NCBI GenBank assembly: GCA_041447035.1
Contig: JBGOFE010000049.1
Span: 1-40,657, forward strand
From: Candidatus Fervidibacter sp.
GTDB taxonomy: Bacteria > Armatimonadota > Fervidibacteria > Fervidibacterales > Fervidibacteraceae
DNA length: 40,657 bases
Reading direction: 5' to 3'
Position numbers and translations under genes: made by a program. Of the stretch, positions 2,736 through 36,067 are shown piece after piece. The notes beneath the pieces were generated by a model, which worked only from the letters and a program-made list of their open reading frames with translations, was not told the origin of the DNA and did no database searches. The number at the start of each line of letters is the position of its first letter. The stretch's first letter is position 1.

Positions 2736-3617
2736 TCAAGGGGCGGGTGCTCCCATTAACAACCGCCAAAGGCGTTGCAGGAAGGACGGCGGTTGACTTT
2801 CGCTGCGTCCATCCTTTGGCAAGGAACTGGCGATAAGGTGAGCCAAGTGACGGATGGCTTTAGCCGTTGGGCAAGAGGGAGCAAGGCGCAAGAGGGGAAC
2901 TTGTTGCTTGATGGCTTCCGAAACCCAAAGGCTGTAGGGCACACATCCCAGCACTTGTGTCCTCAAGCCCAGAAAACGCTGGGCGGCAGAATGCAATCGC
3001 TCGCCTGCCTCTCCTTCAGCGGGGCTGTTGACCATGTTGACGAGGATGCGAATGGGGCGGTCAAAACCTTGACGGGCGAGGACTTTGAGCAAGCCATAAG
3101 CGTCCGTTAGGGCTGTCGGTTCGGGCGTCACGATGAGCAACAACTCATGCGCCGCTTGACAAACCGCTAATACATCGGGACCGATGCCCGCCGCTGCATC
3201 GGCGAGAAGAAGGGAGAACCTTCCCTCCACCGCCGTTAGACGGGCATGCAAAGTGGCGAAAGCATGACCGTCCAACCGAGCCAGTTCCATGATGCCCGAA
3301 GCCCCAGGCAATAGCCAAACCCTTTCATGGACTTGAAGCAGCACTTCATCCAATGCGGCAGTGCCAGCAAGAATGTCTCGCACCGTTTTTGGGGACGTCA
3401 GGTTCAGCAAGACATTGGCGTTGGCGAGGGAAAAATCAGCGTCCCAAAGCAAGACACGGTAACCCAAGTCACCCAACGCCAGCGACAGGTTGACCGCAAG
3501 GGTCGTTTTGCCGACGCCTCCTTTCCCGCTGGCAACAGCGATGGCATAAGTTGTCGCCATCGGCGTCACAGAAGGAGCGACAAAGAGTTCTCGCAACCGC
3601 ACCGCTTGGTCACGCAT
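2736..3617 (-). CDS. flhG: MinD-like ATPase FlhG (flagellar number regulator)
   Basis: N-terminal DQA motif, deviant Walker A SGKGGVGKT, VTPEPTALTDAY, C-terminal amphipathic helix FLQRLWRLL; follows flhF. Confidence 0.92.
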   Translation of the reverse strand: MRDQAVRLRELFVAPSVTPMATTYAIAVASGKGGVGKTTLAVNLSLALGDLGYRVLLWDADFSLANANVLLNLTSPKTVRDILAGTAALDEVLLQVHERVWLLPGASGIMELARLDGHAFATLHARLTAVEGRFSLLLADAAAGIGPDVLAVCQAAHELLLIVTPEPTALTDAYGLLKVLARQGFDRPIRILVNMVNSPAEGEAGERLHSAAQRFLGLRTQVLGCVPYSLWVSEAIKQQVPLLRLAPSCPTAKAIRHLAHLIASSLPKDGRSESQPPSFLQRLWRLLMGAPAP

Positions 3618-4860
3618 CGCCCGTCACCTCCGCCGAAGGGCGCCCCGACCGCAAGGGTGAAAGCACCCAAGAGGCTAATCGGTCAGGCGTCGGGATTTCT
3701 AAATCGTCGGGAACGCTTTGCCCGACAGTCAGGTAGGCAATGGGCAGATGGAGCCGATGGCTGAGGTTGACCATCACGCCCGGTTGGGTGGCTTCGTCCA
3801 GTTTGGTGATGATTAGGTGAGTCGGGCAAAAGAGGGAAAAGCGTTCGGCTGCCAAATTCAAATCGGAAGGGTTGCCATTGGCGGGCAAAGTCAAATGCAC
3901 CTCATCAGGGTTCATTGCCGCCACCAACTCCCACAACGCCGATAGTTGCTCATCGTGTTTGGGGCTACGCCCGATCGTGTCCACCAAAACAAGGTCGGCA
4001 ACCTTTTGGGCTTGTCGGATACATCGCTCCGCTTCTTCAGGGAGCGTGGCGACGAAAAAGGGCAGTCCCATCAAGCGGGCGTAAGTTTCCAGTTGCTGGA
4101 CAGCACCGATGCGGAAGACATCTACCGTCACGAGGGCAACACGGCGGCTACGGCGCATCCATTCGTTGGCGGCGATTTTAGCGACGGTCGTCGTCTTGCC
4201 CACTCCTGTCGGTCCGACGAGGACGGCAACTTTTGTCGTTGGGGCAATCCCATCGGCGACTTTCATGTGCACCCGCAAAATCTGATGGAGCCACTGATAA
4301 AGGTCTGCCTCTTGGGGAGGCGGAGCATCAAGGTGAAGGGCTTGCAATGTCTCCAAGTCCACGCCGCATTGCCAAAGGGCGCTGATGGCACTCATGTTGC
4401 TGAAAGCGCCCTCTTGCCGCCAAAGGACAGCGGTGAGCAATTGCAACTGCCGTTCCAAGGGCGAAGGAGCGACAGGCACTGATGGCTCCTCCCTTGACAC
4501 CTTGCGGGTTTGCCTCTTCGCTTTGGAACGGGACGAGGGACGCGGGGCGAGGGACGCAACAGAGGACTCCTCCGTTGCCGACGAAGTTTTTCGTTTCCGA
4601 ACCGATGGTGGAGTGGAAGGGGATGTCGCCTGCGGTGTCAATGGCGCTCCGTCTTGAGGTGTCGTCTCGGGCACCCATCGCTCTTTGTTTGATGGCGTGG
4701 ATAAAGCAACCCACACACGCACCATCGGCAACCGCCGTAACCACGCCCAAAGACCCTTGCGTTGTTGTGTGTGCAAGATGACGACATCTTCGCCCAATTC
4801 CCTTCGGACTCGCTCCATCACCTCAGGCACGGAATGCCCTTCAAAGCACCGCACGATCAC
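3610..4860 (-). CDS. flhF: SRP-type GTPase FlhF
   Basis: VRRELGEDVVIL N-domain, GPTGVGKTTT, DVFRIGA, DTIGR, TKLDE, GQSVPDD. Confidence 0.93.
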   Translation of the reverse strand: MIVRCFEGHSVPEVMERVRRELGEDVVILHTQQRKGLWAWLRRLPMVRVWVALSTPSNKERWVPETTPQDGAPLTPQATSPSTPPSVRKRKTSSATEESSVASLAPRPSSRSKAKRQTRKVSREEPSVPVAPSPLERQLQLLTAVLWRQEGAFSNMSAISALWQCGVDLETLQALHLDAPPPQEADLYQWLHQILRVHMKVADGIAPTTKVAVLVGPTGVGKTTTVAKIAANEWMRRSRRVALVTVDVFRIGAVQQLETYARLMGLPFFVATLPEEAERCIRQAQKVADLVLVDTIGRSPKHDEQLSALWELVAAMNPDEVHLTLPANGNPSDLNLAAERFSLFCPTHLIITKLDEATQPGVMVNLSHRLHLPIAYLTVGQSVPDDLEIPTPDRLASWVLSPLRSGRPSAEVTGDA

Positions 4861-6902
4861 GCCAAATCACCTCCCACGACCGCTTTGGTTTGCAACGCCA
4901 CTTTGGCGGCATTGATTTCCTCGTAACTGATCACCGTCAGTCGGGGGAAGAAGCGGGCAACGAGCCGGCGCAGGGGCAATCGCAATCGCATCCCGCAAAC
5001 CAAGACGGGTTGCCACCCTTCTGCTGCCACGCGTTCAGCGGCTTCTGCCAACTGTTCTAAAAACCGCTGCCATAGCGACGGGTCAGGCACAAGCACTTGC
5101 CCGCTGTCAGTCTCTTGAACGCTGCTCAAAAGACGCTGCTCTAAGGCAGGGTCAAGGACGATGGCGGGCAGCGTTCCATCGGTGGTCAAGAAGGGTTGAC
5201 AAATCAACCGTGCTAATCGGCGTCGCACTCGTTCCGTTAAGAAGTCGGGGTCTTTGCTGAGGCGGGCGGCATCCGCCAAGGCTTCCAAAATCGCCACCAT
5301 GTCTTTGATAGGAACACCCTCAGAAAGCAAGTTGCAAAGCACTTGATGGATTTCGCCCCGCGAGAGCAATTGGGGCGTCACCTCTTCCACGACGGCAGGA
5401 TGGGTTTGGCGCACTTGATCCAAAAGGGCTTGCACTTCCTGTCGGGACATGATGTCTGGTGCGTGGGTTTTCAACACCTCAGAAAGGTGGGTGATGATGA
5501 CCGTCTCGGCGTCCACGACGGTGTAACCGAGGCGTTCAGCGTCTCGCTTTTTGTCGGCGTCAATCCAAAAAGCAGGCAACCCAAAGGCAGGGTCTTTCGT
5601 GGCGATGCCGTCTAAGGATGGCAAGTTGGGCGAACCGATGGCGAGGAGTTTGTGAGGATGGCAATCGCCTTCCGCCACCTTCGCCCCTCGCACCTTGATG
5701 ACATAACGGTTGGGTGAAAGCAACAAGTTGTCCCGCACCCGAATGGGTGGGACGAGCAACCCTAATTCTTCCGCCAACTTTCGCCGCAAGTTGGTAACGC
5801 GCGCTAACAGTTTGCCCCCCTCCCCTTCCATCGCCATCGGCACCAAGGCAAACCCTAACTCCAACTCCACAGGGTCAACCCGCACATAAGCGGTGAAGTC
5901 TTGCGGTTGGGTCACCGTTTTCGGGGGCGGCGGTGACGGAACTGAGCGGTGCCTCTGAAGCCACCATGCCAAAGCCCCTAAAGCAGTGCCGAGAACGAAG
6001 AAAGGCACTTTGGGCAAACTGGGCAGCAAGCCCAAAAGCAAAGCGCAAGCGGCGGCAAAAAGGAGCGCATCAGGTTGCCCCTTTGCCTCTTTCGCCACCG
6101 TCGCGCTGAGGCTCTCTTCCGACGCCGCTTTGGTGACGATGAAGCCCGCTGCCGACGAGACGAGCAAAGCGGGGATTTGAATGAGCAAACCTTGCCCGAC
6201 GGTCAACAAGGCGTAAGTGCGCAACGCATCTTCCCAACTCTCGCCTCGCTGCCAGACGCCGATGAGCAATCCGCCCACAAAGCAGAGGACGGCAACCAAC
6301 AACGATGTGATGGCGTCACCCCGAACAAACCTGGAGGCACCGTCCATCGCTCCATAAAAGTCGGCTTCCAGTTCTAATCGGCGGCGGCGCTTGCGGGCTT
6401 CTTCCTCGCTGATCAATCCCGCCGACAAATCGGCGTCAATACTCATCTGCTTGCCCGGCAACGCATCCAAAGTGAAACGAGCCGCCACCTCGGCGATGCG
6501 ATTGGCGCCGCCCGTCACGACGGCGAACTGGACGATGACGAGCGTCAGGAACAACACGATGCCGACGAGGAAATTACCGCCCAACACCCATCCACCGACG
6601 GAAGCGACCAACTGCCCCGCCATCCCGCTCGTCAAAATCGCCCGCATCACAGCGACGGAAAGCGCCGTCCGAAAAAGGGCTGCGAAAAGCAGGACAGACG
6701 GGAACGACGAGAACTCCAAAGGCTCCTTGAGCATCAGGACGATGAAAAAGAGCGCCAACGAGCCGACGAAGTGCATCAGCAAAGCGAAATCCAAAAGGAG
6801 TGGCGGTAACGGCACCAACAACATCGCCAAGACCAGACCGACCGCCACCACTGTCCACAGTTCATTTTGCTTAAGTGCCAACGACCGTTGCGCCGATGCC
6901 AT
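4857..6902 (-). CDS. flhA: Flagellar export gate protein FlhA
   Basis: FHIPEP motif RIAEVAARFTLDALPGKQMSIDADL, FYGAMDGASRFVRGD; 681 aa; GGAGG RBS. Confidence 0.97.
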   Translation of the reverse strand: MASAQRSLALKQNELWTVVAVGLVLAMLLVPLPPLLLDFALLMHFVGSLALFFIVLMLKEPLEFSSFPSVLLFAALFRTALSVAVMRAILTSGMAGQLVASVGGWVLGGNFLVGIVLFLTLVIVQFAVVTGGANRIAEVAARFTLDALPGKQMSIDADLSAGLISEEEARKRRRRLELEADFYGAMDGASRFVRGDAITSLLVAVLCFVGGLLIGVWQRGESWEDALRTYALLTVGQGLLIQIPALLVSSAAGFIVTKAASEESLSATVAKEAKGQPDALLFAAACALLLGLLPSLPKVPFFVLGTALGALAWWLQRHRSVPSPPPPKTVTQPQDFTAYVRVDPVELELGFALVPMAMEGEGGKLLARVTNLRRKLAEELGLLVPPIRVRDNLLLSPNRYVIKVRGAKVAEGDCHPHKLLAIGSPNLPSLDGIATKDPAFGLPAFWIDADKKRDAERLGYTVVDAETVIITHLSEVLKTHAPDIMSRQEVQALLDQVRQTHPAVVEEVTPQLLSRGEIHQVLCNLLSEGVPIKDMVAILEALADAARLSKDPDFLTERVRRRLARLICQPFLTTDGTLPAIVLDPALEQRLLSSVQETDSGQVLVPDPSLWQRFLEQLAEAAERVAAEGWQPVLVCGMRLRLPLRRLVARFFPRLTVISYEEINAAKVALQTKAVVGGDLA

Positions 6903-7293: not shown

Positions 7294-8337
7294 TCATGCT
7301 TGCCCCAGCACCTCCTGCGTGCGTCCCGTGATTCGGAAGACATGAGCAAGGACTTCGGCGGCGGCTTGATACAATTCGGGCGGGATAAGGGCGCCGATGG
7401 GAACTTTCATCAGCGCTTGCGCCAAAGGGGCGTTGGGCATGATGGGAACGCCGTGCCTTTGCGCTTCTTGGACGATGCGTTGTGCTAGCCAGTCAGAACC
7501 TTTGGCGATGACCTGCGGGGCGGGCAACTCTTTCGGGTGGTAGCGCAAGGCAACGGCAAGGTGGGTTGGATTGGTGACGACGACCGTCGCTTCCCGCACC
7601 CGTTGGATTTGCCGATGCATCACCAGTTGACGATACTTGCGCCGAAGTCTTGCCTTCGTGTTCGGGTCGCCTTCCGTCTGTTTGAGTTCGTCCTTGACTT
7701 CCTGCCTTGTCATCCGAAGACTTTGCTCTACCCGCCACCATTGGACGGCGTAATCAATGACTGCCAGCAAAAGCAACGCCAATAAGCAGCGCCAAAGCAC
7801 TTGCCACGCCAAATCGCCAATTGCCACCATGCTTTGAGTAACCGAAAGGTTGGAAGCAGCGAGGATGGTGTCTATCCCTGCCCGCAGGGTGATGAAGCCG
7901 AGGTAACCGATGAGGGTGGCTTTCAAAAAAGTCCGAAGGGCATCCCACAACGCCATCGCCGAGAGCATCCGCCGAATGCCCGCTGCAGGGTTGACTTTTT
8001 GCCAGTCCCAACGCAATGGGTAAAGGGTGAACAAAAAGCGCGTTTGCAAGAGACCGACGAGCAAGGAAACTCCCATCAACCCAGCGATGAAAACGAGGAC
8101 AGGCAATAAGCATTTTCGCCAAAGGGGCATCCAGTCGCCATGCATCAACAGTGCCGAGAAAGCATCGCCCAAATTGCGAGACCAAGACGGCAATAACCAG
8201 CCCGCCACCATCGCCCCACTCAACAGGACAATCGTGCCCGTCAGTTCGGCGCTGCGGGCGACGATGCCCTGCTTTCGGGCATCTTCTCGCCGTTTTGGTG
8301 TCGGCGCTTCCGTCTTGTCCGACCAAAACATGTCCAT
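7294..8337 (-). CDS. flhB: Flagellar export substrate-switch protein FlhB
   Basis: KTEAPTPKRREDAR N-terminus, MTRQEVKDELKQTEGDP, autocleavage NPTH; start moved to 8337, overlapping the fliR stop. Confidence 0.95.
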   Translation of the reverse strand: MDMFWSDKTEAPTPKRREDARKQGIVARSAELTGTIVLLSGAMVAGWLLPSWSRNLGDAFSALLMHGDWMPLWRKCLLPVLVFIAGLMGVSLLVGLLQTRFLFTLYPLRWDWQKVNPAAGIRRMLSAMALWDALRTFLKATLIGYLGFITLRAGIDTILAASNLSVTQSMVAIGDLAWQVLWRCLLALLLLAVIDYAVQWWRVEQSLRMTRQEVKDELKQTEGDPNTKARLRRKYRQLVMHRQIQRVREATVVVTNPTHLAVALRYHPKELPAPQVIAKGSDWLAQRIVQEAQRHGVPIMPNAPLAQALMKVPIGALIPPELYQAAAEVLAHVFRITGRTQEVLGQA

Positions 8338-9122
8338 CACCGACCTGCCAAAGTCATAAGAAGGCTTGGGACAGAAGTCGTCAAGTGGATCAAGAGGCGT
8401 TCTGCAAGGTTCGGCATCGCTGTCAACGCTATTGCCGTGACGAACAAGCAGGCAAGGATGCGAGCGGGCATGCCCCAAAGCAGCACACCCAATTGCGGTG
8501 CTGCCCGTCCCATCAAACCCAACACCAAATCGGAAAGCAACACAATGCCCAAAGTCGGGACGATGAGGGGCAAAGCGAGGAAAAAGCCTCGTCCCAACAT
8601 CGCCCACCACATTTCACCCAATTGCGGTCGCAAGGCAAAGTCGCTGCCGACAGGCAGCCATCGGTAACTTTCGGTGACAGCCCGCAAAAGCAAGTGATGT
8701 CCACCGAGTTGGAAGAACGAGACGCCTGCTAAAAGCGTGGCGATGCGGGCGATGATGGCGACCCTCGTGCCCATGATTGGGTCAGCCAACGCCGCAAAGC
8801 CAAAACCCACCTGCCAATCCGCCAACTCGCCAACCCACTCCCACAACCAAACAAAAGACGCAAAGACCATTCCGATGAGCATGCCGATAACCGTCTCTCT
8901 CACGAGCACAATGAGCAACAAGACAGGTGCATCGGTTGTCACGGGTGGGACGAAAGGCAAGCCCGCTAACGCCGCACCGAAGGCGACGACGGCACGACAA
9001 ACACTCGGAACTTGCGGCACTGACAGGGCAGGCATCAATGCCAACGCCCCACCAAAGCGCGCTGTTGCCATCAACCATCGCACCCATTCCGTCAGCCAAA
9101 CTTCCGTCGGCACCGCCATCAT
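8337..9122 (-). CDS. fliR: Flagellar export protein FliR
   Basis: Highly hydrophobic 261 aa; GELADWQVGFGFA and LMGRAAPQL motifs; between fliQ and flhB. Confidence 0.92.
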   Translation of the reverse strand: MMAVPTEVWLTEWVRWLMATARFGGALALMPALSVPQVPSVCRAVVAFGAALAGLPFVPPVTTDAPVLLLIVLVRETVIGMLIGMVFASFVWLWEWVGELADWQVGFGFAALADPIMGTRVAIIARIATLLAGVSFFQLGGHHLLLRAVTESYRWLPVGSDFALRPQLGEMWWAMLGRGFFLALPLIVPTLGIVLLSDLVLGLMGRAAPQLGVLLWGMPARILACLFVTAIALTAMPNLAERLLIHLTTSVPSLLMTLAGR

Positions 9123-9499: not shown

Positions 9500-10600
9500 T
9501 CAACGGACACTGAGGGCTAAACCGCGCAGGAGCAAATGCCAACCATCCGCCAAAACAAAGAGCAACAACTTCAAGGGCAACGAGATAAGCATGGGGGGCA
9601 CCATCAACATGCCCAGTCCCATCAAGACGCTGGCGATCACGATGTCCACGACGAGGAAGGGCACGGAAAGGAGGAAGCCGATCTCAAAGCCCGTCCGCAC
9701 CTCGCTGAGGATGAAGGCGGGAATGAGGATGTGAGGCGGGACATCTTCAGGGCTTTTCGGGTTGGGCAAACGGGCGATGCGCAGGAACAAAGCGATGTCC
9801 TGTTCCCGCACTTGACGGAGCATGAACCGCTGGAAGGGACGGTAACCGGCGGCGATGGCTTGCTCGGTGTTCAGTTTGCCTTGCAGGTAAGGTCGCAAAG
9901 CGTTTTCATAGGCTGCTTGCAAAGTCGGTGCCATCACGAAGAGCGTCAGGAAAAGCGCCATGCCAATGAGGACGGGATTGGGCGGCGTTTGCGGGGTGCC
10001 CAGCGCCATCCGCAGCAAACTCAAGACGATGACGATGCGGGTGAAGCAAGTCATGACGGAAAGCAAAAAGGGCGCTAAGGCGATGAGCGTGAGCACTAAC
10101 AGAATTTGCACGGCTTCCCTTGTCAGGCTCAACTGACTTTGCCAGTTCGCCGTCGGCGATTGAGCGAACGCAACAGAGAAGGAAACGAGCAGCAGAAGGA
10201 AGACAGCGGGAAGATGTAGAGAGGTCGGCAGGTCGGCAGCCGGCAAATTGGCGGGCTGGGAGCGTCGTTCCTCTGCTCCGTCCTGCGTCCCTCGTCCCGA
10301 GTCCCATTTACCGTTTGTGCCTGTTGCTAATCGCCCTTCGTCGGTCGCTCCCTCCGTCACTTCGGTTAACAACTGGACGCTTTGGGGTGTGAGGGCGAGG
10401 AGGAAGGAGCGATGGTCGCAAGCGACGAGGGCGAGGCTTTTGCCGCCACCCAGCGGAAGGACTTCCAGCAACCGCAGGCGGCGTTTCGGGTTGACGACCA
10501 AGGGTTGCCATCGGCGCAGTGTCCAACCAAGCGCCCAAGCCAACCCGCAAACGAAGGCACAACTGAAGATGACCCGAAGCACCGACGCCCATTCCGCCAT
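9500..10600 (-). CDS. fliP: FliO-FliP fusion protein
   Basis: N-terminal FliO-like TM plus LRLLEVLPLGGGKSLALV...LLALTPQSVQLLTE; C-terminal FliP (MTCFTRIVIVL, TPPNPVLIGMALFLT, PAFILSE, ADGW); single open frame; ATG 10600 (TTG 10624 alternative). Confidence 0.88.
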   Translation of the reverse strand: MAEWASVLRVIFSCAFVCGLAWALGWTLRRWQPLVVNPKRRLRLLEVLPLGGGKSLALVACDHRSFLLALTPQSVQLLTEVTEGATDEGRLATGTNGKWDSGRGTQDGAEERRSQPANLPAADLPTSLHLPAVFLLLLVSFSVAFAQSPTANWQSQLSLTREAVQILLVLTLIALAPFLLSVMTCFTRIVIVLSLLRMALGTPQTPPNPVLIGMALFLTLFVMAPTLQAAYENALRPYLQGKLNTEQAIAAGYRPFQRFMLRQVREQDIALFLRIARLPNPKSPEDVPPHILIPAFILSEVRTGFEIGFLLSVPFLVVDIVIASVLMGLGMLMVPPMLISLPLKLLLFVLADGWHLLLRGLALSVR

Positions 10601-10628
10601 TGACCGCTCACCGTCCTTTCCCAAGCCC

Positions 10629-12515: not shown

Positions 12516-12809
12516 TCAAGGTTGACAATGTGGGCATGGCATAAAGCCCATTTCCAATGCTGCTTTGCGCGAGGGAAAAAGCACCCGTGAAAGGCGGGGA
12601 ATGTTTTCTGCCTCTTTGCAACGACTCCGATGGAATTGCCGCGTCGTCAGGTCGCCGATGTAGCGCGTCTGGTGGTGCTCAATCACTTTCTGCACATCTT
12701 GGCTGAGAGCATCTGAGTCCGTCGGGTAGCGTGCCGCTAACCAAAGGGCTTCGGCGGCAGCAAGGAACGCCACCGTCCAAGCAACGCCTTTCCACCAATG
12801 ACGCTTCAT
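12516..12809 (-). CDS. Membrane-anchored or exported protein with Ada-type metal-binding domain
   Basis: N-terminal hydrophobic segment; YIG...FHRSRC...F.SR..A...GFMPCPHCQP matches the Ada Zn-binding-like pattern; ATGA overlap with the motB stop; GGAG RBS. Confidence 0.75.
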   Translation of the reverse strand: MKRHWWKGVAWTVAFLAAAEALWLAARYPTDSDALSQDVQKVIEHHQTRYIGDLTTRQFHRSRCKEAENIPRLSRVLFPSRKAALEMGFMPCPHCQP

Positions 12810-14727: not shown

Positions 14728-15939
14728 CTATCGTCGCAAGTTCAGGGCTTCCTGAATCAGTTCATCGGCGGCGAGGATAGTGCGGGCGGCGGCTTGGAAG
14801 GAGCGTTGGGCGATGAGGACTTGGGTGAGTTCTCTGGCTAAGTCCACATTGGACATCTCCAATCCGCCTCCTTGGACGCGCCCTGCTCCGCCAATCCCTG
14901 CGGGTAAAAAGCGAGGCGAGCCAGAGTTGCCCGAAACATTGAACAGGTTGTCGCCGACCCGTTCTAAACCTTCGGGATTGGTGAACATGGCGATGGCGAT
15001 TTGCGCGACGGGGCGGGTGACGCCGTTGGTGAAACTGGCGATAATGATGCCTCGTGCATCCACGGAGAAACTCTCCAAATCGCCCGGTGGGAAGCCATCT
15101 TGGAAAGTCGCTCCGACCGTTGTTTCCGACGCCAGTTGGCGGATGTTGGAGAAATCCACGGTGATGGTCTGAGGCGATGCCGCACCGTTGGTGAAAGTCA
15201 AGGTGACACTCCCTGTCCCGCCGCCGCTAACTTGACCGTTGCTGTCAAAAGTCACGGTGCCGCTGCCGACAGGGTTGCCGCCCAATCGTGCCTGCCAAGC
15301 CCAAGTGTTGACGCCCGTTTTCGTGAAGGTTAACTGGACGATGTGAGAGTTGCCGAGGCTGTCAAAAGCGGTGAAACTGAGGTTGACGGAATCGCCGACA
15401 TTTTTTCGGGAGTCCAAGTTGCCTTCAAAGCGCGTCAAGGTGGTCGCCCGTGCCGAGAGGCTTCCCGTCGGCAAAACGATAGGCACAGGGGTCGTTTGCG
15501 TGTTGATGGTGCCGCCAGAATCAGCGACCCAACCGAGCAAAATGCTGCCAGAGCCGATGTGCACCAAGTGCCCTTGGGCATCTAAGCGGAAAGAGCCGTC
15601 GCGGGTGAAGCGCACTTGGTCGCCCTTTTGGACAGCGAAAAACCCGTTGCCCAAAATCGCCAAGTCGGTCGGCATCCCTGTCGGGGTGAAAGTGCCTTGT
15701 GCCATCCGTGTCGCGATGGCGCTGACAAACACGCCCGTCCCGACCTGCAACGGGTTGGAGCCACCCACATTGGAGATGGGCGCCGTGGATGCCCGCAGCG
15801 TTTGATAAAAAGCGTCGGCGAAACTGACGCTTTGCGACTTGAACCCAGAAGTGTTCAAGTTCGCCAGATTGTTGGCGGCGACGGACAGCATGAAATCAGC
15901 GGCGCTGAGCGCCGAAAGGGCGGTTTGCATCACGCCCAT
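14728..15939 (-). CDS. flgE: Flagellar hook protein FlgE
   Basis: ANNLANLNTSGFK, DLAILGNGFF, FDSLGNSH, LEMSNVDL; 403 aa. Confidence 0.95.
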   Translation of the reverse strand: MGVMQTALSALSAADFMLSVAANNLANLNTSGFKSQSVSFADAFYQTLRASTAPISNVGGSNPLQVGTGVFVSAIATRMAQGTFTPTGMPTDLAILGNGFFAVQKGDQVRFTRDGSFRLDAQGHLVHIGSGSILLGWVADSGGTINTQTTPVPIVLPTGSLSARATTLTRFEGNLDSRKNVGDSVNLSFTAFDSLGNSHIVQLTFTKTGVNTWAWQARLGGNPVGSGTVTFDSNGQVSGGGTGSVTLTFTNGAASPQTITVDFSNIRQLASETTVGATFQDGFPPGDLESFSVDARGIIIASFTNGVTRPVAQIAIAMFTNPEGLERVGDNLFNVSGNSGSPRFLPAGIGGAGRVQGGGLEMSNVDLARELTQVLIAQRSFQAAARTILAADELIQEALNLRR

Positions 15940-16349
15940 CGTCCTTCACCTCCGCTTTGCGGGATAGTGATGGCAGAGACGGTGCTCAAAGGCACCGCTT
16001 TCGTTTCTGCACCCAATTGCACCAGCAAATGAGGCTGGTCTTCGTTGAAAGCGACGCTAACGACCGTGCCCTTTTGCCATTGCCCATCTATCAGGGCTTG
16101 AATTTCCCGCCCTAACATCAGCAACGCTTGCACGCGCTTCAATCCTTCAACGACCTCCGTCGCCGATTGCGCCGATTGCAAGGCGACAAATTGCTGGAGC
16201 ATCGCTTGGGTGTCGCCGACGGTGAACGGGTCTTGCATCTGCAATTGCGTCAAAAGCAGTTTCCAAAAGTCCTGTGCGGACAAAACAGCACGGTCAGCGG
16301 AAGGTGGCAAAGGATTGCCACCACTCAACGGCTCAACGCTCATCGGCAT
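15930..16349 (-). CDS. flgD: Hook capping protein FlgD
   Basis: DFWKLLLTQLQMQDP motif; directly upstream of flgE; AGGAGGG RBS. Confidence 0.88.
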   Translation of the reverse strand: MPMSVEPLSGGNPLPPSADRAVLSAQDFWKLLLTQLQMQDPFTVGDTQAMLQQFVALQSAQSATEVVEGLKRVQALLMLGREIQALIDGQWQKGTVVSVAFNEDQPHLLVQLGAETKAVPLSTVSAITIPQSGGEGRWA

Positions 16350-16466: not shown

Positions 16467-18083
16467 TCATGCCCAAACACCTTCTTCTTCGGCAGAGATG
16501 TGGCGAGACGGCGCAACGCTGGGCAGGCGCCGCCAAGGGGCGGTGAAGTCGGCGGGGTCGCGCCGCTGCCGCTGATTATCTTCGGCAAAAACGGCAAACT
16601 GCGCCAGGGCAATCCCTTGCTCCCACAGTTGCTGGCGAAGATGGGGCATTGCCGTTTGGATGGGTGCGGTCAACTCAGAATCGGGCACTTGCACGAGGAT
16701 GGACACCGTTGACATCGCTTGCCCTCGCCCTTCTGCCGCACTCTTTTCCAACTGAATGAGAACGCGCACGGACTTTTCACCATCGGCGGTCGGCACTTCG
16801 GCAGCAAGGCGATGAATGGATGACGGAACAGGAGCGGAAGATGGCTCGGAATGAGCCAAAGGACGAGGGACAGAGGAAGAGGGCAACGGATGGGAAGCAG
16901 AGGGGAAAGCAAAGAGAGCGTCGGAAGCAGGTTGGCTTGACAAAAGCGAAGGAACGGAGGATGCGGAATTCGCCTTGGAAGAAGAGGCACCGTTTAGCAC
17001 ATCCTTGAAAGGGCGCTCCCTCGTTGGCTTGGTCGTTCGTTCCGTCACTTCGCTGTCAGGGTGTGTCGGCGGCGAAGAGCGAAAAGGTGACAAGGCGTGT
17101 CCATCCACCTGCTTGCCTGTTTGCCTTCCTGTCAAGTTATCCACTTGCCCATCTTCCAAGTTACCGCCTTCGTCAATCGTTGCCCGATTGACTATCTGCC
17201 AGCCTATCCATCTGCTGCTCTGCCCATAGCCTACCCGCTCCCTTGTCCATTGAGCCAGTTGCTCTCGGAAGGCTTGCCAATAAGAGAGGACGCGCCGAAG
17301 GAAGGTTTGTGTTTCGGGATAAGGCGGCACACCTCCATAGCGGGCGACGGCGTTGGGTCCGGCGTTGTAAGCGGCGACGGCGAGGGTGACTTGAGCGTTA
17401 AAGTGTTCCAAAAGGTGCCGAAGGTAGCGAATGCCGCCGTCAATGTTTTGGGCGGGATTGAAAGGATCGGTGACGCCAAGGCTTTTTGCCGTTTCGGGCA
17501 TCAATTGCATCACACCCATCGCTCCCTTTGGGGAGCGGGCAAAGGGGTTGAAATTGCTCTCCGCCTTCGCCACCGCTAAGGCAAGGGCGGGGTCAACGCC
17601 GTATCGTTGGGCAGTCTGGATGATGAGGTGCTGAAGGTCCGATGAAGGCGGGGCAATGGAAGGCGCAGAGCCTATCTCGTCAACGGGCTGCGCGCTGGTG
17701 AGCGGCAAAGGGAATCCGTCGCGACTTTGGGGAACGCACAACGCATTGGCAAAAGAGGGGTTGAAAGCGACCGATTGTCCACCTCTAACGAAACTTTGCG
17801 AGAGGGGCGTTGGCATCGTCTTCGTCAACGCCGCTGCGACATGAGCGAGGAAGGGAGAAACCTGCATGCTCGCAGGCAACTGACCCAGCAGCATCGTGAG
17901 CCATTGGCTTTCTATCGTTTGCAGCCGTCCCAACAAAGCCAGCAACCCATCCGCCATGTGGGCAAGTCGGTCAGGATTTGTCCGCCATTCATCCGACAGG
18001 GATTGCCAAGTCGGAATGGCTTCATTGAGATGAGCGTCGCCCATAATGCCTCCCGTCAATGGCGAAAGGGACGGTAAAGTCAT
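16467..18083 (-). CDS. Lytic transglycosylase (SLT) domain fused to a probable FliK-like hook-length-control C-terminal domain
   Basis: SLT motifs AESNFNP (catalytic Glu), GVMQLMP, AAYNAG, PYPETQ at about residues 150-270; P/S-rich linker; C-terminal VSILVQV...LRQQLWEQGIALAQFAV resembles the FliK T3S4 domain; lies between fliJ and flgD. Confidence 0.75.
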   Translation of the reverse strand: MTLPSLSPLTGGIMGDAHLNEAIPTWQSLSDEWRTNPDRLAHMADGLLALLGRLQTIESQWLTMLLGQLPASMQVSPFLAHVAAALTKTMPTPLSQSFVRGGQSVAFNPSFANALCVPQSRDGFPLPLTSAQPVDEIGSAPSIAPPSSDLQHLIIQTAQRYGVDPALALAVAKAESNFNPFARSPKGAMGVMQLMPETAKSLGVTDPFNPAQNIDGGIRYLRHLLEHFNAQVTLAVAAYNAGPNAVARYGGVPPYPETQTFLRRVLSYWQAFREQLAQWTRERVGYGQSSRWIGWQIVNRATIDEGGNLEDGQVDNLTGRQTGKQVDGHALSPFRSSPPTHPDSEVTERTTKPTRERPFKDVLNGASSSKANSASSVPSLLSSQPASDALFAFPSASHPLPSSSVPRPLAHSEPSSAPVPSSIHRLAAEVPTADGEKSVRVLIQLEKSAAEGRGQAMSTVSILVQVPDSELTAPIQTAMPHLRQQLWEQGIALAQFAVFAEDNQRQRRDPADFTAPWRRLPSVAPSRHISAEEEGVWA

Positions 18084-18544
18084 TCCGCTTCCACTCCTTC
18101 GGCGTTGGCGACAGCGAAGTCCCGCAAGGCACGCTCATCGGCGTGGGCTTGCTCTTCCCGCAGAAATTCCGCCAGCCATTGTCGCCACGCCTTTTCTCGC
18201 AAATCTTCCAAGAGTTCACGGCGTCGGCGGCATTCGCGGTAAGCGACGAGTTTTGCGTTCACTTCCTGTTGCGCCTGAGCCACTTGGGCTTCAGCGAGCC
18301 TTCGTTGGCGTCCCAACAAGTCCAGTCGCTGCACCGCCAGCAGAAGGTCTTCGGGAGGAGTTTGTTCGGCAAGCAACTGGCGCAACTGGCGCATTGCCGC
18401 TTGCTGTTGGTCAATGAGTTGAGCCAAAGCATGCTCTCGCTCGCGCAATCGTGCTTGGGCTTGCCGTAACTGCCGCTCGGCTTGTTGCTCTTCCACCCGT
18501 CGCACTTTGAGCAAGTCCTCCAACGGAAAGCGAAAGCGCCGCAT
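18080..18544 (-). CDS. fliJ: Flagellar export protein FliJ
   Basis: FRFPLEDLLKVR N-terminus, long coiled coil, EEQAHADE C-terminus; follows fliI. Confidence 0.9.
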   Translation of the reverse strand: MRRFRFPLEDLLKVRRVEEQQAERQLRQAQARLREREHALAQLIDQQQAAMRQLRQLLAEQTPPEDLLLAVQRLDLLGRQRRLAEAQVAQAQQEVNAKLVAYRECRRRRELLEDLREKAWRQWLAEFLREEQAHADERALRDFAVANAEGVEAE

Positions 18545-18565
18545 CAACAATCGCCTCCTTACAGG

Positions 18566-27885: not shown

Positions 27886-28257
27886 ATGATTGTCAACCCT
27901 TACTTGCAACAAATGGTTGAGACAGCGACACCCGTGCAACTTATTGGTTTGCTCTTTCGGCGCGGCAGCGAACTGATGGACGAAGCCGAACAAGCCTTGA
28001 CGGAGCGAAACTTGGAGCGAGCCGATGAAGCCTTGACAAAGGCTCAAAAAATCGTCGCCGAACTCATCAGCAGTTTGGACATGGAAAAGGGCGGCGAAAT
28101 CGCTGTCAACCTGCGTCGCCTCTACACCTTCGTTTGGGAGCGTCTTTTGCACGCCAACTTGCGCAAATCCGTTGAACCGCTTCAGGACGCCAAACAAGTT
28201 TGGTCTCAACTTTGCGAGTTGTGGGAGCAAGTGGAGCAAAACGAAGGAGGTGCTTAA
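27886..28257 (+). CDS. fliS: Flagellin chaperone FliS
   Basis: NPY...VETATPVQL, KAQKIVAEL.SSLDMEKGGEIAVNLRRLY; AAGGAGG RBS. Confidence 0.95.
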   Translation: MIVNPYLQQMVETATPVQLIGLLFRRGSELMDEAEQALTERNLERADEALTKAQKIVAELISSLDMEKGGEIAVNLRRLYTFVWERLLHANLRKSVEPLQDAKQVWSQLCELWEQVEQNEGGA

Positions 28258-28259
28258 CA

Positions 28260-31200
28260 ATGCAGCAAAATGGCGGCTTCGGCGCGGGCGCAAAAGCGTG
28301 GATTTACAGCAAAAAGGTGCACCATTATCGGCGTGAATATGCCCATCAGCCTGTTTGCAACATGACCATGCTGGAGTTTGTCCCGATATGGGCAAAGCGC
28401 ATCTTGGACATCGGTTGCTGCATGGGTGGGGCAGGACGGATTTTGAAGCAACGGCAAGCCTGCGAAGTTTGGGGCGCGGAAATTGCGCCTGAACTTGCCC
28501 GCATCGCCGCCCAGCACTACGAAAAGGTCATCGTCGGCGACATTGAAGATGATGCCGTTTGGCAACAACTGCCCAAAGGCTACTTTGATGCCGTCATCTG
28601 CGGCGAAGTTCTGGAGCACCTCATTGCGCCCGAACGGGTTCTAAAGCGACTGCACGAAGTCATCACGCCTGACGCCACTTTAGTGCTCAGCGTTCCCCAT
28701 GTTGGACATGTTTCTGTCATCAGGAAACTCCTGCAAGGCAAGTTTGACTACGAACCGACAGGCATTTTGGACAGCAGCCACTTGCGATTTTTCAGCCGAA
28801 AAAATCTGTGGCGGCTCTTGAGGGAAAGCGGATGGTTGGTGACCCACAGCATTACTGGCGTCGTCCCAACTGAGTTGTCCGACAACTTGCGAGAGGCTTT
28901 GCTCCGCAGCAAATGGGCAACTCACGCAGGTTTAAGCGAAACGCAAATCATTGGCTTTGCCCTCGCTGCCCGAAAGATGCCCTGCGATGTGGCGATGGGC
29001 AATGAGCCGACGGACGGTTTAGTCAGCATCATCATCCTCAACTGGAACAACTTGCGTTACCTTCGCCGTTGCGTTGAAAGCGTTTTCGCTTACACTCGTC
29101 AACCTTTTGAACTCATCATCGTGGACAACGGCTCAACGGACGGCTCAAGGCGATACTTGAACGAACTGGTTCGCCAACACCGCAATGTCAAGGTGGTTTT
29201 GAACGAACGCAACATTGGCGCTCCTGCTGGACGAAACTGCGGTTTGGCTGTCGCCGAAGGTGACTTCATCGTTTTCCTTGACAGCGACACAGTTGTCACC
29301 GACGGTTGGCTTGATCGGTTGCTCCGTTGGATGGAAATTGACCCGACCATTGGCATGGTCGGTCCGTGTTCCAACTTCGCATCGGGTCAGCAAATTGAAG
29401 TCAACTACCGCAACTTGAAAGAGATGCACGAGTTCGCTCAACATTGGTGCGCCCGAAATTGCGGAACAGGTTTTGAAATCACAGTCCTCATCAGTTTTTG
29501 CGTCTTGATGCGCCGCAGCGTCATTGATGCCATCGGCGGCATGGATGCCCGTTTCGGACTCATCATGCACGAGGACATTGACCACTCCCTTCGGGCAAGG
29601 GTGGCAGGTTTTCGGTGCTGGTTGGCTGTTGATGCTTTCGTTCACCACTATGGCAACCGAACGAGCGGGCGGTTGGGCGTTGAGAAGATGATGGAAGCCG
29701 CCTTCCCTCGCTTCAAGGAGAAATGGAACTTGCCCGAAGAGGCAGAAAAGTATCGCCCACGCCTCATGCTTGTGCCCGAACTTTTTGACATTCGCCGCCG
29801 CCCACCAAAGCCCAAAGACCTTTACGAGCCACTCCCTGACCCAAGTGCCTTGACCGTTCTGGATGGACGCAAGTTCAAGCCGCTGATTTCGCTGTGCATG
29901 ATTGTCAAGGACGAAGCCGACAACTTGCCTCGGTGTTTGGAGAGCGTGAAAGGCATCGTGGACGAAATCGTCGTCGTGGACACGGGTTCAACGGATGAGA
30001 CGCCCCAAATTGCCGAGCGCTACGGCGCAAAAGTCATTCGCTTTGAGTGGACGGGAAGTTTCAGCGACGCCCGCAATGAGTCGCTCAAGCACGCAACGGG
30101 TGAATGGATTTTGTGGCTTGATGCTGACGAAGCGTTGGCGGATGGCAAGGAGAACTTGCGAAAGTTGCTGGAAACGAACGACGAATACGATGGCTTCATC
30201 TTGCCGATGGTCAGTTTCGTCGGTCACCGTTCGCACCGAGAAGGTCATGTCCATCCCGCTTTCAGGCTTTTTCGCAACCTGAAAGGCATTCGGTTTGAGC
30301 GCAACTTGCACGAGCAAATTGCCAGTTCCATCAAACAAGTCAAGCCTGACGCCAAGTTCGGCGTCTTGCCCGTTTGGATTGAGCATTACGGCTACTTGAG
30401 CCCTTTGGTTCGGCGCAAGCAAAAAGTCGCCCGCAATTTGGAGTTGGCGAAGAAGGATTTGCATGCCAACCCGTTTGATCCCTTCGCTTGGTATAACTTG
30501 GGGCGGGAGTATTTGCGGTTGCGACAATGGGAGCGGGCTTTCTATTGCTTTCGGCGGGCGTTGGTGCACTTGGGTGACACCTTCACGCCCTATCTTCTTC
30601 GCTGCCTTTGCGATGCCGTGCACTGCTTGATGCAACTGAACCGACCACAGCAAGCCATAGCACTTTTGCGGGAATCAAAACAGTTGCCCATCACGACGCC
30701 TGACTTTTGGATGCTGGAAGGGCAAGTGCTGTTCACTTTGGGCGATTGGACGGGAGCGTTGCGGGCGTTCCAAGGAGCACTTTCCTTCGCCTCTCAATTG
30801 CCGACCAACTTTGATTGGACGGAAGGCGCTACTTCCTACGGCGCTTGGTATTGGATGGGCTTATGCCATCAAAAGATGGGGCAATTGCCCGACGCCCTGC
30901 AGTGCTTTGGAAGGGCGATTCAACAAGCGTTGCTGCGGCGCCGCTACTATGAGCCTGCCATCACATCTTTCGTGCAGTTGGTTTTACCGCAGTGCCGCTC
31001 TGTTGATGACTTGGAACGGGCGCTTGCCCCATTTGTGCCTGAAGGCATTTCCACACACCCGCAACTTGCCGTTTTGGTCGCCAAAGCGGCATTAAGCCAT
31101 TACCCGTTGCCGCCATGCGCATTGGAAGTCTCAAAAGCGCTGATGGAACGGGACACGGGACAAGGGACACGGGACACGGTTGATGAGACGGAGCGGATTT

Positions 31201-31886
31201 TTGTTGAGGGCAAGTTGGCGCTTTTGGAGCACCGCTATGCGGAGGCGGCTCGCTTGTTCGCCCAAATTCCGCTAACCGCACCTGAAGGTGCAACGGCTTG
31301 GAACTTGAAAGTTCTCGCCCACGCCCTCGTTGGCGAGTGGGACGAAGCGTTCTCTTCCTGCAACGGCGATTCGCTCTGGCAGGCGTTATTGAGACTCTGG
31401 CAAAACGGCTTAAACGCTTCTGACTGCCTACCTGCCCAACTGCCTACCTGCCCACCTGAATTGCTTCCTTTGCTTCAAGAGAACTTCCGAGACTTGCTGG
31501 CGCTTTTGTTGCAACTTCAGGAGTTTGAGCGCTACGAACAAGCGTTGAGTTTGTTGAACTGGCTCGTTTCAGATGAGCGGGAGCGGACAATGTTGCTGGG
31601 CAAACTTTACGGGCAGTTTGGCTTTTGGGACATGGTTTTGGAGACGCTGCTTCCGCTCGCTCAAAACGGCGGCATGGACAGGGAAAGTTGGCGGCTGTTG
31701 GCTCGTGCCTGCCAGCACAAAGGCTTTTACGATGAGGCGGCAGCGATTTTGCTGCGACTGATTGAAAGCGACGAGCGAAAAGACGAAGCCCTTGCCGATT
31801 ACATGGCTTTGGCAGGTTGCTACATCGCCGCAGGCGATAGCCCTCGTGCCCAGCAAATCCTCGCCTTAGTGGGACGGATGGGGTAA
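28260..31886 (+). CDS. Multidomain SAM methyltransferase-GT2-GT2-TPR protein, probable flagellin glycosyltransferase
   Basis: ILDIGCCMGG and FDAVICGEVLEHL (class I MTase); VSIIILNWN, VDNGSTDG, FLDSD, HED (GT2 no.1); CMIVKDE, DTGSTD, WLDADE, LHEQ, HYGY (GT2 no.2); TPR-like helices; AAGGAGG before ATG 28260. Confidence 0.85.
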   Translation: MQQNGGFGAGAKAWIYSKKVHHYRREYAHQPVCNMTMLEFVPIWAKRILDIGCCMGGAGRILKQRQACEVWGAEIAPELARIAAQHYEKVIVGDIEDDAVWQQLPKGYFDAVICGEVLEHLIAPERVLKRLHEVITPDATLVLSVPHVGHVSVIRKLLQGKFDYEPTGILDSSHLRFFSRKNLWRLLRESGWLVTHSITGVVPTELSDNLREALLRSKWATHAGLSETQIIGFALAARKMPCDVAMGNEPTDGLVSIIILNWNNLRYLRRCVESVFAYTRQPFELIIVDNGSTDGSRRYLNELVRQHRNVKVVLNERNIGAPAGRNCGLAVAEGDFIVFLDSDTVVTDGWLDRLLRWMEIDPTIGMVGPCSNFASGQQIEVNYRNLKEMHEFAQHWCARNCGTGFEITVLISFCVLMRRSVIDAIGGMDARFGLIMHEDIDHSLRARVAGFRCWLAVDAFVHHYGNRTSGRLGVEKMMEAAFPRFKEKWNLPEEAEKYRPRLMLVPELFDIRRRPPKPKDLYEPLPDPSALTVLDGRKFKPLISLCMIVKDEADNLPRCLESVKGIVDEIVVVDTGSTDETPQIAERYGAKVIRFEWTGSFSDARNESLKHATGEWILWLDADEALADGKENLRKLLETNDEYDGFILPMVSFVGHRSHREGHVHPAFRLFRNLKGIRFERNLHEQIASSIKQVKPDAKFGVLPVWIEHYGYLSPLVRRKQKVARNLELAKKDLHANPFDPFAWYNLGREYLRLRQWERAFYCFRRALVHLGDTFTPYLLRCLCDAVHCLMQLNRPQQAIALLRESKQLPITTPDFWMLEGQVLFTLGDWTGALRAFQGALSFASQLPTNFDWTEGATSYGAWYWMGLCHQKMGQLPDALQCFGRAIQQALLRRRYYEPAITSFVQLVLPQCRSVDDLERALAPFVPEGISTHPQLAVLVAKAALSHYPLPPCALEVSKALMERDTGQGTRDTVDETERIFVEGKLALLEHRYAEAARLFAQIPLTAPEGATAWNLKVLAHALVGEWDEAFSSCNGDSLWQALLRLWQNGLNASDCLPAQLPTCPPELLPLLQENFRDLLALLLQLQEFERYEQALSLLNWLVSDERERTMLLGKLYGQFGFWDMVLETLLPLAQNGGMDRESWRLLARACQHKGFYDEAAAILLRLIESDERKDEALADYMALAGCYIAAGDSPRAQQILALVGRMG
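31150..31177 (+). repeat. Intragenic 7-bp tandem repeat GGGACA(C/A) x4
   Basis: gggacac gggacaa gggacac gggacac. Confidence 0.9.
31424..31458 (+). repeat. Intragenic 8-bp tandem repeat CTGCC(T/C)A(C/A) x4
   Basis: ctgcctac ctgcccaa ctgcctac ctgcccac ctg. Confidence 0.85.
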
Positions 31887-32142: not shown

Positions 32143-32171
32143 TTGACGCCTTGCTTCTGCAAGGTTACAAT
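32143..32171 (+). promoter_or_regulatory. sigma70-type promoter of the prepilin gene with a palindrome in the spacer
   Basis: TTGACG-17bp-TACAAT; the spacer contains CCTTGC-N4-GCAAGG (32149-32164). Confidence 0.75.
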
Positions 32172-32219
32172 AATGGCGTCGCTGGGACGACAAATCCTGT
32201 CCAAAGGAGGGTGACGACA

Positions 32220-35770: not shown

Positions 35771-36067
35771 TCACACCCCCAACTCCCGCAGCACGGCTTC
35801 GGCGACCGCTTTGATGTCTGGGTTGTAAGTGCCTTGCTCCAACTGCTGCTGAATTTGCGCCACCCGTTCGGTATCCACTTCGGGAAGTTGCTTGACCACT
35901 GCGTGCAACAACTGAATCAACCGCAACTCCGCCGATAAAGTGACGGGCTCCCCGTTGCCTTTCACAGAGCCCGACGGCATTGATGTGGCGTCCATCCGCT
36001 GGCTTGCCTCCAAACGAGACGCCAAGAGGTTTTGCAACCGATCGGCGATGTCTGGCGAAATCCGCAT
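35771..36067 (-). CDS. flgM: Anti-sigma28 factor FlgM
   Basis: VTLS, PEVDTERVAQIQQQLEQGTYNPD..AVAEA; GAGGTG RBS. Confidence 0.9.
   Translation of the reverse strand: MRISPDIADRLQNLLASRLEASQRMDATSMPSGSVKGNGEPVTLSAELRLIQLLHAVVKQLPEVDTERVAQIQQQLEQGTYNPDIKAVAEAVLRELGV

What the first reader, a model, noticed from the sequence alone, without database searches (positions are those of the whole stretch)
16467..18083. Lytic transglycosylase built into the hook-length ruler (SLT::FliK)
Seen: the only gene between fliJ and flgD, the canonical fliK slot, encodes a low-complexity N-terminus without an obvious Sec signal, an intact SLT domain, a P/S-rich linker and a FliK-like C-terminal domain. No other fliK is in the window. 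Known: FliK is exported through the flagellar T3SS as a ruler and switches FlhB specificity; rod passage through peptidoglycan normally uses separate enzymes (FlgJ muramidase, SltF, CwlQ-like SLTs). Inference: one exported protein may both open the cell wall at the growing rod tip and measure the hook, coupling wall remodelling to substrate switching. I do not know of a characterised example of this architecture, and it is the best candidate for a new system here.
Basis: partly seen in the sequence, partly recalled or inferred. Interest (0 to 1): 0.85.

Follow-up and report, generated by a model that had tools for sequence, protein, structure and literature searches.

The report
Wall-cutting enzyme inside flagellar ruler
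One gene of hot-spring Fervidibacter bacteria joins a cell-wall-cutting enzyme domain to the switch domain of the flagellar hook-length ruler FliK; the same fusion recurs in other lineages, and the enzyme likely leaves through the growing flagellum as part of the ruler, where it would loosen the wall for the rod.

Summary
Observation confirmed. Window 16467-18083 (-) is one 538-aa ORF between fliJ and flgD: an SLT domain (Pfam E 1e-30; Glu175 invariant in 33 of 33), a P/S-rich linker and a diverged FliK switch domain (profile and fold searches rank FliK-C 2RRL first). Homologue names place the genome in Fervidibacter (Armatimonadota). The gene is fused in 14 of 14 genus genomes where the interval is assembled, no second fliK was found, and FlgJ is a 96-aa cap without hydrolase domain. 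Many Armatimonadota keep slt and fliK as separate neighbours (44 of 144; 5 fused); fused SLTs are not one clade (AU p 0.006), and Acidimicrobiales carry the fusion too. The post-SLT linker alone (median 161 aa) is far shorter than stand-alone FliK rulers (460), while the whole N-region (425) matches them, so the enzyme domain likely counts as ruler. Best reading (0.55): a flagellum-exported ruler whose early copies refold in the periplasm and nick peptidoglycan. Tight coupling of wall cutting to the switch has no support. Nothing is tested experimentally. Not found in the papers searched; a published table calls the gene 'lytA'. This scan reported the same fusion on other DNA three times.

The parts
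16467..18083 (-). slt::fliK fused gene, 538 aa (P0001)
   Evidence: single ORF in 13 other genus genomes
17643..18083 (-). N-terminal region, residues 1-147: no Sec-type signal, conserved predicted helix 37-67, then variable P/S/A-rich stretch; inferred type III export signal
   Evidence: homology to the N-terminal helix of stand-alone flagellar SLTs is weak (hhalign E 0.03)
17229..17642 (-). SLT (GH23-type lytic transglycosylase) domain, residues 148-285
   Evidence: Pfam SLT E 1.2e-30; Slt70 1QSA E 1.3e-10; pLDDT 81-94 per block over 151-280; dN/dS 0.06-0.15
17559..17561 (-). Glu175 of the AES motif, predicted catalytic residue
   Evidence: invariant in 33 of 33; aligns with residue 478 of Slt70, recalled as its catalytic Glu
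16818..17228 (-). Disordered S/P-rich linker, residues 286-422; length 105-253 aa in the genus
   Evidence: pLDDT about 30
16566..16817 (-). Diverged FliK switch (T3S4) domain, residues 423-506
16470..16565 (-). C-terminal tail ending in conserved (D/E)GxWA
   Evidence: G535, W537, A538 invariant in 33 of 33; 29 of 30 stand-alone FliKs of the phylum also end in Ala
18080..18550 (-). fliJ, upstream neighbour; its stop overlaps the start of the fused gene
   Evidence: Pfam FliJ E 2e-10
15930..16349 (-). flgD, hook cap, downstream neighbour
   Evidence: Pfam FlgD E 1e-7
14728..15939 (-). flgE, hook subunit
7294..8610 (-). flhB with intact NPTH autocleavage motif, the expected partner of the switch domain (true start probably further in)

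Best explanation
This gene encodes one protein with a lytic transglycosylase domain in front of a FliK switch domain, and it is likely the cell's only hook-length ruler, predicted to be exported N-terminus first through the flagellar type III channel with the enzyme domain unfolded and counting as part of the ruler's length. Inferred steps: (1) the N-terminal segment, likely inherited from the ancestral stand-alone slt gene, serves as the early export signal for both functions; (2) copies exported while the rod is still growing would land in the periplasm at the rod tip, refold and nick peptidoglycan locally, supplying the activity that the short FlgJ cap lacks and easing, not necessarily enabling, rod passage; (3) copies exported during hook growth would leave the cell, and when rod plus hook are long enough the C-terminal domain would switch FlhB. 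The two jobs would share one export event and one stoichiometry but not control each other. The fusion likely arose by read-through of the neighbouring slt and fliK genes, several times.
For: Shown: single ORF in 14 of 14 genus genomes with the interval assembled; one Flg_hook match per genome in 13 of 17 other genus genomes; SLT under the strongest purifying selection of the four regions in 6 of 6 pairs, dN/dS 0.06-0.15; no ATG in this gene's linker and no conserved internal start in 14 of 14; FlgJ 96 aa with only a weak Rod-binding match and no PF01832 glucosaminidase in 0 of 5 genomes; order fliI-fliJ-slt-fliK-flgD with separate genes in many relatives. Length: distance to the switch domain is 367-507 aa (median 425) in 14 fused proteins against median 459.5 in 30 stand-alone FliKs, while the post-SLT linker is 105-253 (median 161.5); P0039 has about 14 residues between the two domains. 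Published: CwlQ is an SLT secreted by the flagellar system through its N-terminus; FliK is secreted throughout rod and hook assembly and a FliK-Bla fusion is active in the periplasm; hook length rises 0.2 nm per residue and FliK310/335 lose control, whereas the post-SLT part here is 263 aa; F. sacchari has a 55.5 nm periplasm, which would call for a long ruler.
Against: No export, activity or hook length was measured. The switch domain is diverged: below the Pfam cut-off in every orthologue scanned, only its second half aligns with phylum FliKs (hhalign 90%, 43 columns; the LxPxxLG motif is not matched), and Z 6.1 is in the range that can be a common arrangement. In Salmonella little FliK-Bla reaches the periplasm in wild type, so the enzyme dose would be small. 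Hydrolase loss only reduces flagellation in Salmonella and does not block it in Bacillus. The cultured relative is described as non-motile. Some other fused lineages keep long linkers (381-648 aa in 4 of 5 phylum genomes), so shortening is not general. Start codons of stand-alone FliKs were guessed and related genomes are not independent.
Confidence: 0.55

Rival explanations
1. Same bifunctional exported protein, but the enzyme acts like CwlQ: it conditions the wall around finished or growing basal bodies (number, stability, P-ring or stator fit) and has no part in rod passage.
For: cwlQ mutants still build flagella; rods can pass without a dedicated hydrolase; a second SLT exists in the genome.
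Against: The gene lies in the early rod-hook operon, not among late genes, and early substrates are no longer exported after the switch; FlgJ has no hydrolase; in Borrelia, single-domain FlgJ relies on a separate SLT for wall passage.
Confidence: 0.2
2. The fusion is only genetic economy: the product is cleaved or translated in two parts, or switches from the cytoplasm, so enzyme and ruler act separately as in the ancestors.
For: The linker is disordered and variable; the genes are separate in 44 of 144 genomes and apart or on other contigs in 90; an Agrobacterium laboratory FliK-SLT fusion of opposite order works almost like wild type, so such fusions are easily tolerated.
Against: No conserved internal start; the C-terminal part would have no export signal and would be too short as a ruler.
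Confidence: 0.1
3. One reading: binding or cutting of peptidoglycan by the SLT domain sets the export rate of the ruler and so gates the FlhB switch until the rod has crossed the wall.
For: Switching depends on FliK export rate, and the rod-to-hook transition is guarded against premature switching in Salmonella; repeated fusion could reflect a benefit.
Against: Repeated fusion is also expected for adjacent co-exported genes; most of the phylum sample manages with separate genes; nothing here links catalysis to switching.
Confidence: 0.1
4. The C-terminal domain is a decayed FliK remnant or an unrelated small alpha/beta domain, and hook length is set by something else.
For: Sub-threshold Pfam score, unmatched first motif, middling fold scores; G000 is 83% complete.
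Against: dN/dS 0.12-0.33 in the domain; both solved T3S4 structures rank first and second among 48,161 chains; canonical position; no other Flg_hook match in near-complete genus genomes; FlhB keeps NPTH.
Confidence: 0.05

Closest known systems
FliK, flagellar hook-length ruler (Salmonella; PDB 2RRL), and injectisome SctP/PscP (5CUK)
   Same: C-terminal switch domain with the same predicted fold, long disordered linker, position between fliJ and flgD, conserved last residues.
   Different: About 140 residues of the N-terminal ruler region are a folded, conserved enzyme domain; the first motif of the switch domain has diverged.
CwlQ (YjbJ) of Bacillus subtilis
   Same: SLT domain behind an N-terminal segment without Sec signal; flagellum-linked; export through the flagellar system is shown for CwlQ and inferred here.
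   Different: CwlQ is a stand-alone, SigD-dependent late gene in a monoderm; here the SLT is in the early operon of a diderm and fused to FliK. Orthology to CwlQ was not tested.
Bifunctional FlgJ of Salmonella (rod cap plus glucosaminidase)
   Same: A wall enzyme riding on a flagellum-exported assembly factor.
   Different: Different enzyme family and different carrier (transient ruler rather than rod cap); FlgJ here is single-domain.
Single-domain FlgJ plus separate SLT (Borrelia BB0259, Rhodobacter SltF)
   Same: Short FlgJ paired with an SLT-family enzyme.
   Different: Those enzymes use Sec signals and bind FlgJ; this one has no Sec signal and is covalently tied to FliK.
Agrobacterium cms-2 laboratory FliK-Atu0572 fusion (PMC4358000)
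   Same: FliK and a putative lytic transglycosylase from adjacent genes in one functional polypeptide.
   Different: A frameshift mutant with the opposite order (enzyme behind FliK), not a natural fixed gene.
Phage tape measure proteins with lytic transglycosylase domains
   Same: A length ruler that carries a wall enzyme through a narrow tube; the best PDB sequence hit of the SLT domain is a tape measure protein (9B45; listings).
   Different: Unrelated machine; an analogy, not homology of the ruler.

Membership tests
FliK / T3S4 rulers | C-terminal T3S4 domain by sequence | tested here: met
   Profile hit to 2RRL E 3.3e-5 as only significant PDB hit; hhalign to phylum FliK-C 90%, score 37 against a maximum of 13 in 30 column shuffles; Pfam score below cut-off
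FliK / T3S4 rulers | T3S4 fold | tested here: met
   2RRL Z 6.1 (rmsd 4.1, 76 aligned) and 5CUK Z 5.0 (rmsd 2.2, 64 aligned) rank 1 and 2; model pLDDT 67; middling Z
FliK / T3S4 rulers | LxPxxLG motif in the first half of the domain (seen in phylum FliKs) | tested here: inconclusive
   Not aligned with confidence; an invariant-like Pro (P431) is present but its equivalence is unproven
FliK / T3S4 rulers | Gene between fliJ and flgD, sole copy | tested here: met
FliK / T3S4 rulers | Long, poorly conserved N-terminal ruler region | tested here: met
   413 residues before the domain, similar to stand-alone FliKs, but 138 of them form an SLT domain
FliK / T3S4 rulers | Export via flagellar T3SS, FlhB switching, polyhooks on deletion | not testable with these tools
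   needs experiment
GH23 / SLT lytic transglycosylases | SLT domain with catalytic Glu (ES), GxMQLMP and AYNAG motifs | tested here: met
GH23 / SLT lytic transglycosylases | Cleavage of peptidoglycan to 1,6-anhydro products | not testable with these tools
   needs assay
CwlQ-like flagellum-exported SLTs | No Sec signal; N-terminal segment before the SLT domain | tested here: met
   hydropathy check on 23 fused proteins, maximum 1.6, controls 2.15 and 2.5
CwlQ-like flagellum-exported SLTs | Orthology with B. subtilis CwlQ | not tested
   CwlQ sequence was not in hand
CwlQ-like flagellum-exported SLTs | Stand-alone late (SigD) gene | tested here: not met
   fused, in the fliF-flgE operon
SltF / BB0259 type | Sec or lipoprotein signal | tested here: not met
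   NCBIfam BB0259 score 70 against cut-off 234
Bifunctional FlgJ | Rod-binding domain plus glucosaminidase | tested here: not met
   no such domains in P0001; the genome's FlgJ is a separate 96-aa gene

The most novel reading that the evidence does not exclude
A natural 'enzyme-tipped ruler': a folded, catalytically intact wall enzyme makes up a third of the FliK ruler, is threaded through the rod, refolds at the tip to open peptidoglycan exactly where the rod grows, and by catching on the wall also paces ruler export so that the FlhB switch cannot fire before the rod has crossed; evolved repeatedly in at least two phyla, converging on the design of phage tape measure proteins.
Probability: 0.12. 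Interest if true: 0.85.

Novelty: new variant of a known kind. Interest (0 to 1): 0.55.

Why it matters
How the flagellar rod crosses peptidoglycan outside enteric bacteria is still open, and FliK's ruler region is usually treated as a featureless spacer. A natural, repeatedly evolved FliK that carries an intact enzyme in that region gives a direct way to test whether a foldable domain counts as ruler length, and points to the unfused slt gene between fliJ and fliK, common across Armatimonadota, as an early flagellar export substrate. It also corrects annotation: the published flagellar gene table for three Fervidibacter genomes lists this gene as 'lytA' and no fliK.

Tried and rejected
Complex prediction of residues 25-290 with the short FlgJ: no verdict (score 0.00), no evidence either way. 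Profile search of the 1.84-billion representative set with the C-terminal alignment was queued and never finished, so the full range of the family is unmeasured. No RNA holder listed among public runs. In the F. sacchari transcript and protein tables (PMC11535203 supplementary file 3) I found no row for the fused gene under the terms searched; neighbours fliJ, flgD and flgE have low counts (baseMean 19, 33, 132): expression undetermined. Homology of the N-terminal helix to stand-alone flagellar SLTs is clear for fusions P0045, G151 and G214 (E 1e-8 to 6e-7) but weak for Fervidibacter (E 0.03, as low as some unrelated FliK N-termini). A search for the gate-recognition motif wording in PMC9307174 found nothing, so I make no claim on it. 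Hidden frameshift rejected; one joint skipping 365 bases in run X6 rests on a 21-letter side and was set aside as foreign DNA. Single origin of the fusion rejected. The genome-wide Rod-binding search missed G000's FlgJ; it was found by synteny. Other Flg_hook matches in G000 (E 0.04, 0.17) were not followed. PMC10746217 (actinobacterial flagella) has no passage on the fusion under the terms searched.

Full report
OBSERVATION. Window 16467-18083 (-) is one 538-aa ORF. Pfam scanning of 42 window ORFs shows a complete flagellar cluster running flgB-flgC-fliE-F-G-H-I-J-[this gene]-flgD-flgE-flbD-motA-motB-fliL-M-N-(O/P)-Q-R-flhB-flhA. The start codon overlaps the fliJ stop. The protein has an SLT domain (153-250, E 1.2e-30) and a weak Flg_hook match (459-506, E 6.8e-4, under the cut-off). 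The full-length model is confident only for the SLT domain and, less so, the C-terminal domain; 286-422 is disordered. Homologues are named Fervidibacter and Armatimonadota, among them F. sacchari M2350_001764.

IS IT ONE GENE? Of 17 other genus genomes, 13 hold the whole gene as one ORF between fliJ and flgD. Of the other four, G015 has its first 37 codons at a contig end, G001 has an assembly gap between fliI and flgD, and G004 and G005 gave no flhA, flgE or fliI match. So 14 of 14 assembled intervals, G000 included, are fused. Contigs of 4 of 24 listed runs show no insertion or deletion, but none spans the whole stretch. There is no ATG in this gene's linker and no conserved internal start in the 14.

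IS THE C-TERMINUS FliK? A profile of 14 C-termini finds only Salmonella FliK-C (2RRL) at E 3.3e-5; the next hit is E 0.41. The predicted fold (pLDDT 67) ranks 2RRL first in Foldseek (E 7.9e-3) and 2RRL and PscP 5CUK first and second among 48,161 chains (Z 6.1 and 5.0). Against 30 stand-alone FliK-C domains of the phylum it scores 90% over 43 columns, far above 30 shuffles. Against this: scores are middling, and the LxPxxLG half does not align well. It is the best Flg_hook match in G000 and the single match at E 0.01 in each of 13 genus genomes. dN/dS in the domain is 0.12-0.33. FlhB keeps NPTH. I put FliK identity at about 0.93.

IS THE ENZYME INTACT? Glu175 and the GxMQLMP and YNAGP motifs are invariant or nearly so in 33 of 33 aligned homologues; Glu175 aligns with Slt70 residue 478, recalled as catalytic. 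dN/dS is 0.06-0.15, lowest of the four regions in 6 of 6 pairs. No Sec-type hydrophobic stretch is seen in 23 fused proteins.

FlgJ. FlgJ lies in flgG-flgA-flgJ-flgH-flgI and is 96 aa in G000 (C78:513-803) and about 100-130 aa in three relatives, with only a weak Rod-binding match. No glucosaminidase domain was found in 0 of 5 genomes; FlgI is present in 5 of 5. G000 has one other SLT gene.

ORIGIN. In a sample of 301 phylum genomes, 181 have a Flg_hook match. For 144 genomes outside the genus whose FliK place was listed and that were searched for the SLT, the SLT lies upstream within 7 kb as a separate gene in 44, in the same ORF in 5 (G037, G050, G075, G151, G214), elsewhere or on another contig in 90, and was not listed in 5. 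Limits: 60 FliK rows were not listed, two genomes were left out, and most lower-ranked second SLT hits were not entered. Fetched loci confirm fliI-fliJ-slt-fliK-flgD-flgE. On the SLT tree the fused state needs 4 changes among 60 rows, and one clade of the 24 fused rows is rejected (p-AU 0.006, 130 columns, quick tree); with 36 more database proteins it needs 7 on a fast tree. G151 and G214 sit with unfused relatives in a starred clade and have fused relatives of their own. Of the top 120 longer hits of a stand-alone SLT profile, 42 carry both PF01464 and PF02120. Four Acidimicrobiales genomes hold the fusion between fliI and flgE. The tree is unrooted, so some fissions cannot be excluded.

DOES THE ENZYME COUNT AS RULER? 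Distance from start to switch domain: 367-507 aa, median 425, in 14 Fervidibacter proteins, against median 459.5 (middle half 397-506) in 30 stand-alone FliKs. The post-SLT linker is 105-253, median 161.5; only 2 of 30 stand-alone values are that short, and both probably reflect wrong starts. P0039 has about 14 residues between the domains; its close relative lies downstream of fliI on a truncated contig. In Salmonella FliK, hooks grow 0.2 nm per residue and 310-335-residue variants lose control (PMC6126814, passages); the post-SLT part here is 263 aa. F. sacchari has a 55.5 nm periplasm (PMC11535203, passages). The inference is that the SLT region threads the channel as ruler. Caveats: starts were guessed, kin are not independent, and 4 of the 5 other phylum fusions keep linkers of 381-648 aa.

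MECHANISM. Shown: architecture, conservation, gene order, short FlgJ. Known from papers: CwlQ is an SLT exported by the flagellar system through its N-terminus yet dispensable for assembly (bioRxiv 2021.01.13.426625, passages and Discussion); FliK is exported throughout rod and hook assembly, FliK-Bla is active in the periplasm, with little in wild type, and export rate and the last five residues govern switching (PMC13344023, passages and section 14); FlgJ hydrolase helps but is not required (PMC13584718, abstract and Introduction); Borrelia's single-domain FlgJ needs a Sec-exported SLT (PMC8517470, passages); FliK domain layout (PMC6972891, passages). Inferred: export, refolding at the rod tip, local wall cutting, later ruler action. 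I give 0.55 to a bifunctional exported ruler that eases rod passage, 0.2 to a CwlQ-like upkeep role, 0.1 to separate products, 0.1 to tight coupling and 0.05 to a dead FliK remnant.

KNOWN OR NEW. Searches of the held library for FliK with lytic transglycosylase and fusion, with transglycosylase and hook length, with SLT domain and fused and with Armatimonad and flagell listed no description of a natural SLT-FliK protein; I read listings, and passages of a few. The library lacks most subscription papers. The nearest case is a laboratory Agrobacterium frameshift joining FliK to the downstream transglycosylase in the opposite order, which complements a fliK deletion (PMC4358000, passages). Supplementary Data 12 of PMC11535203 gives 'fliEFGHIJ lytA flgDE' with no fliK for three Fervidibacter genomes, and Data 11 calls F. 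sacchari non-motile; its main supplementary PDF was too large to read and may discuss this. Tape measure proteins with wall enzymes are an analogy (search listing only). This scan's earlier notes report the same fusion on other DNA three times and a FlgJ-FliK fusion once; my reading was set before I saw them.

VERDICT. Real, conserved, recurrent fusion of two known flagellar export substrates: a new variant of a known kind. Interest 0.55.

Noticed in passing
window 9500-10624 (-): FliO and FliP domains in one 374-aa ORF (Pfam FliO 34-101, FliP 177-369). One open frame also in 3 of 4 genus relatives (the fourth has a TGA inside the match); a distant relative matches the FliP part only.
   Followed up: partly
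window 12516-12809 (-): 97-aa protein with a hydrophobic N-terminus and an Ada-type Zn-binding domain (E 1e-4, just under cut-off) between motB and fliL; a protein of that name has a neighbouring accession in F. sacchari.
   Followed up: no
window 28200-31886 (+): 1228-aa methyltransferase, two GT2 and TPR domains beside fliS, fliC and fliD; likely flagellin glycosylation.
   Followed up: no
window 27886-28257 (+), 35771-36067 (-), 32151-32873 (+): fliS, flgM and a prepilin-type DUF1559 gene; the long ORFs on the opposite strands are shadows.
   Followed up: partly
L039, L040 (G039, G024), L045 (G036): The stand-alone slt stays after fliI/fliJ while fliK lies on another contig; in G039 and G024 slt is directly followed by flgD. 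The link of slt to fliJ looks tighter than its link to fliK.
   Followed up: partly
L079 (G214) 3469-6477: The fused protein's linker is built of long internal repeats; database proteins with the same SLT sequence are 677 and 747 aa against about 956 here, suggesting fast ruler-length change or assembly collapse.
   Followed up: no
L034 (G011) 3127-4361; L110 (G271) 3568-5395: flgE and fliI, respectively, are split over frames; possibly assembly errors.
   Followed up: no
L132, L139, L197: Bacillota SLT genes next to a short FlhB-like gene and, in two, flgB.
   Followed up: no
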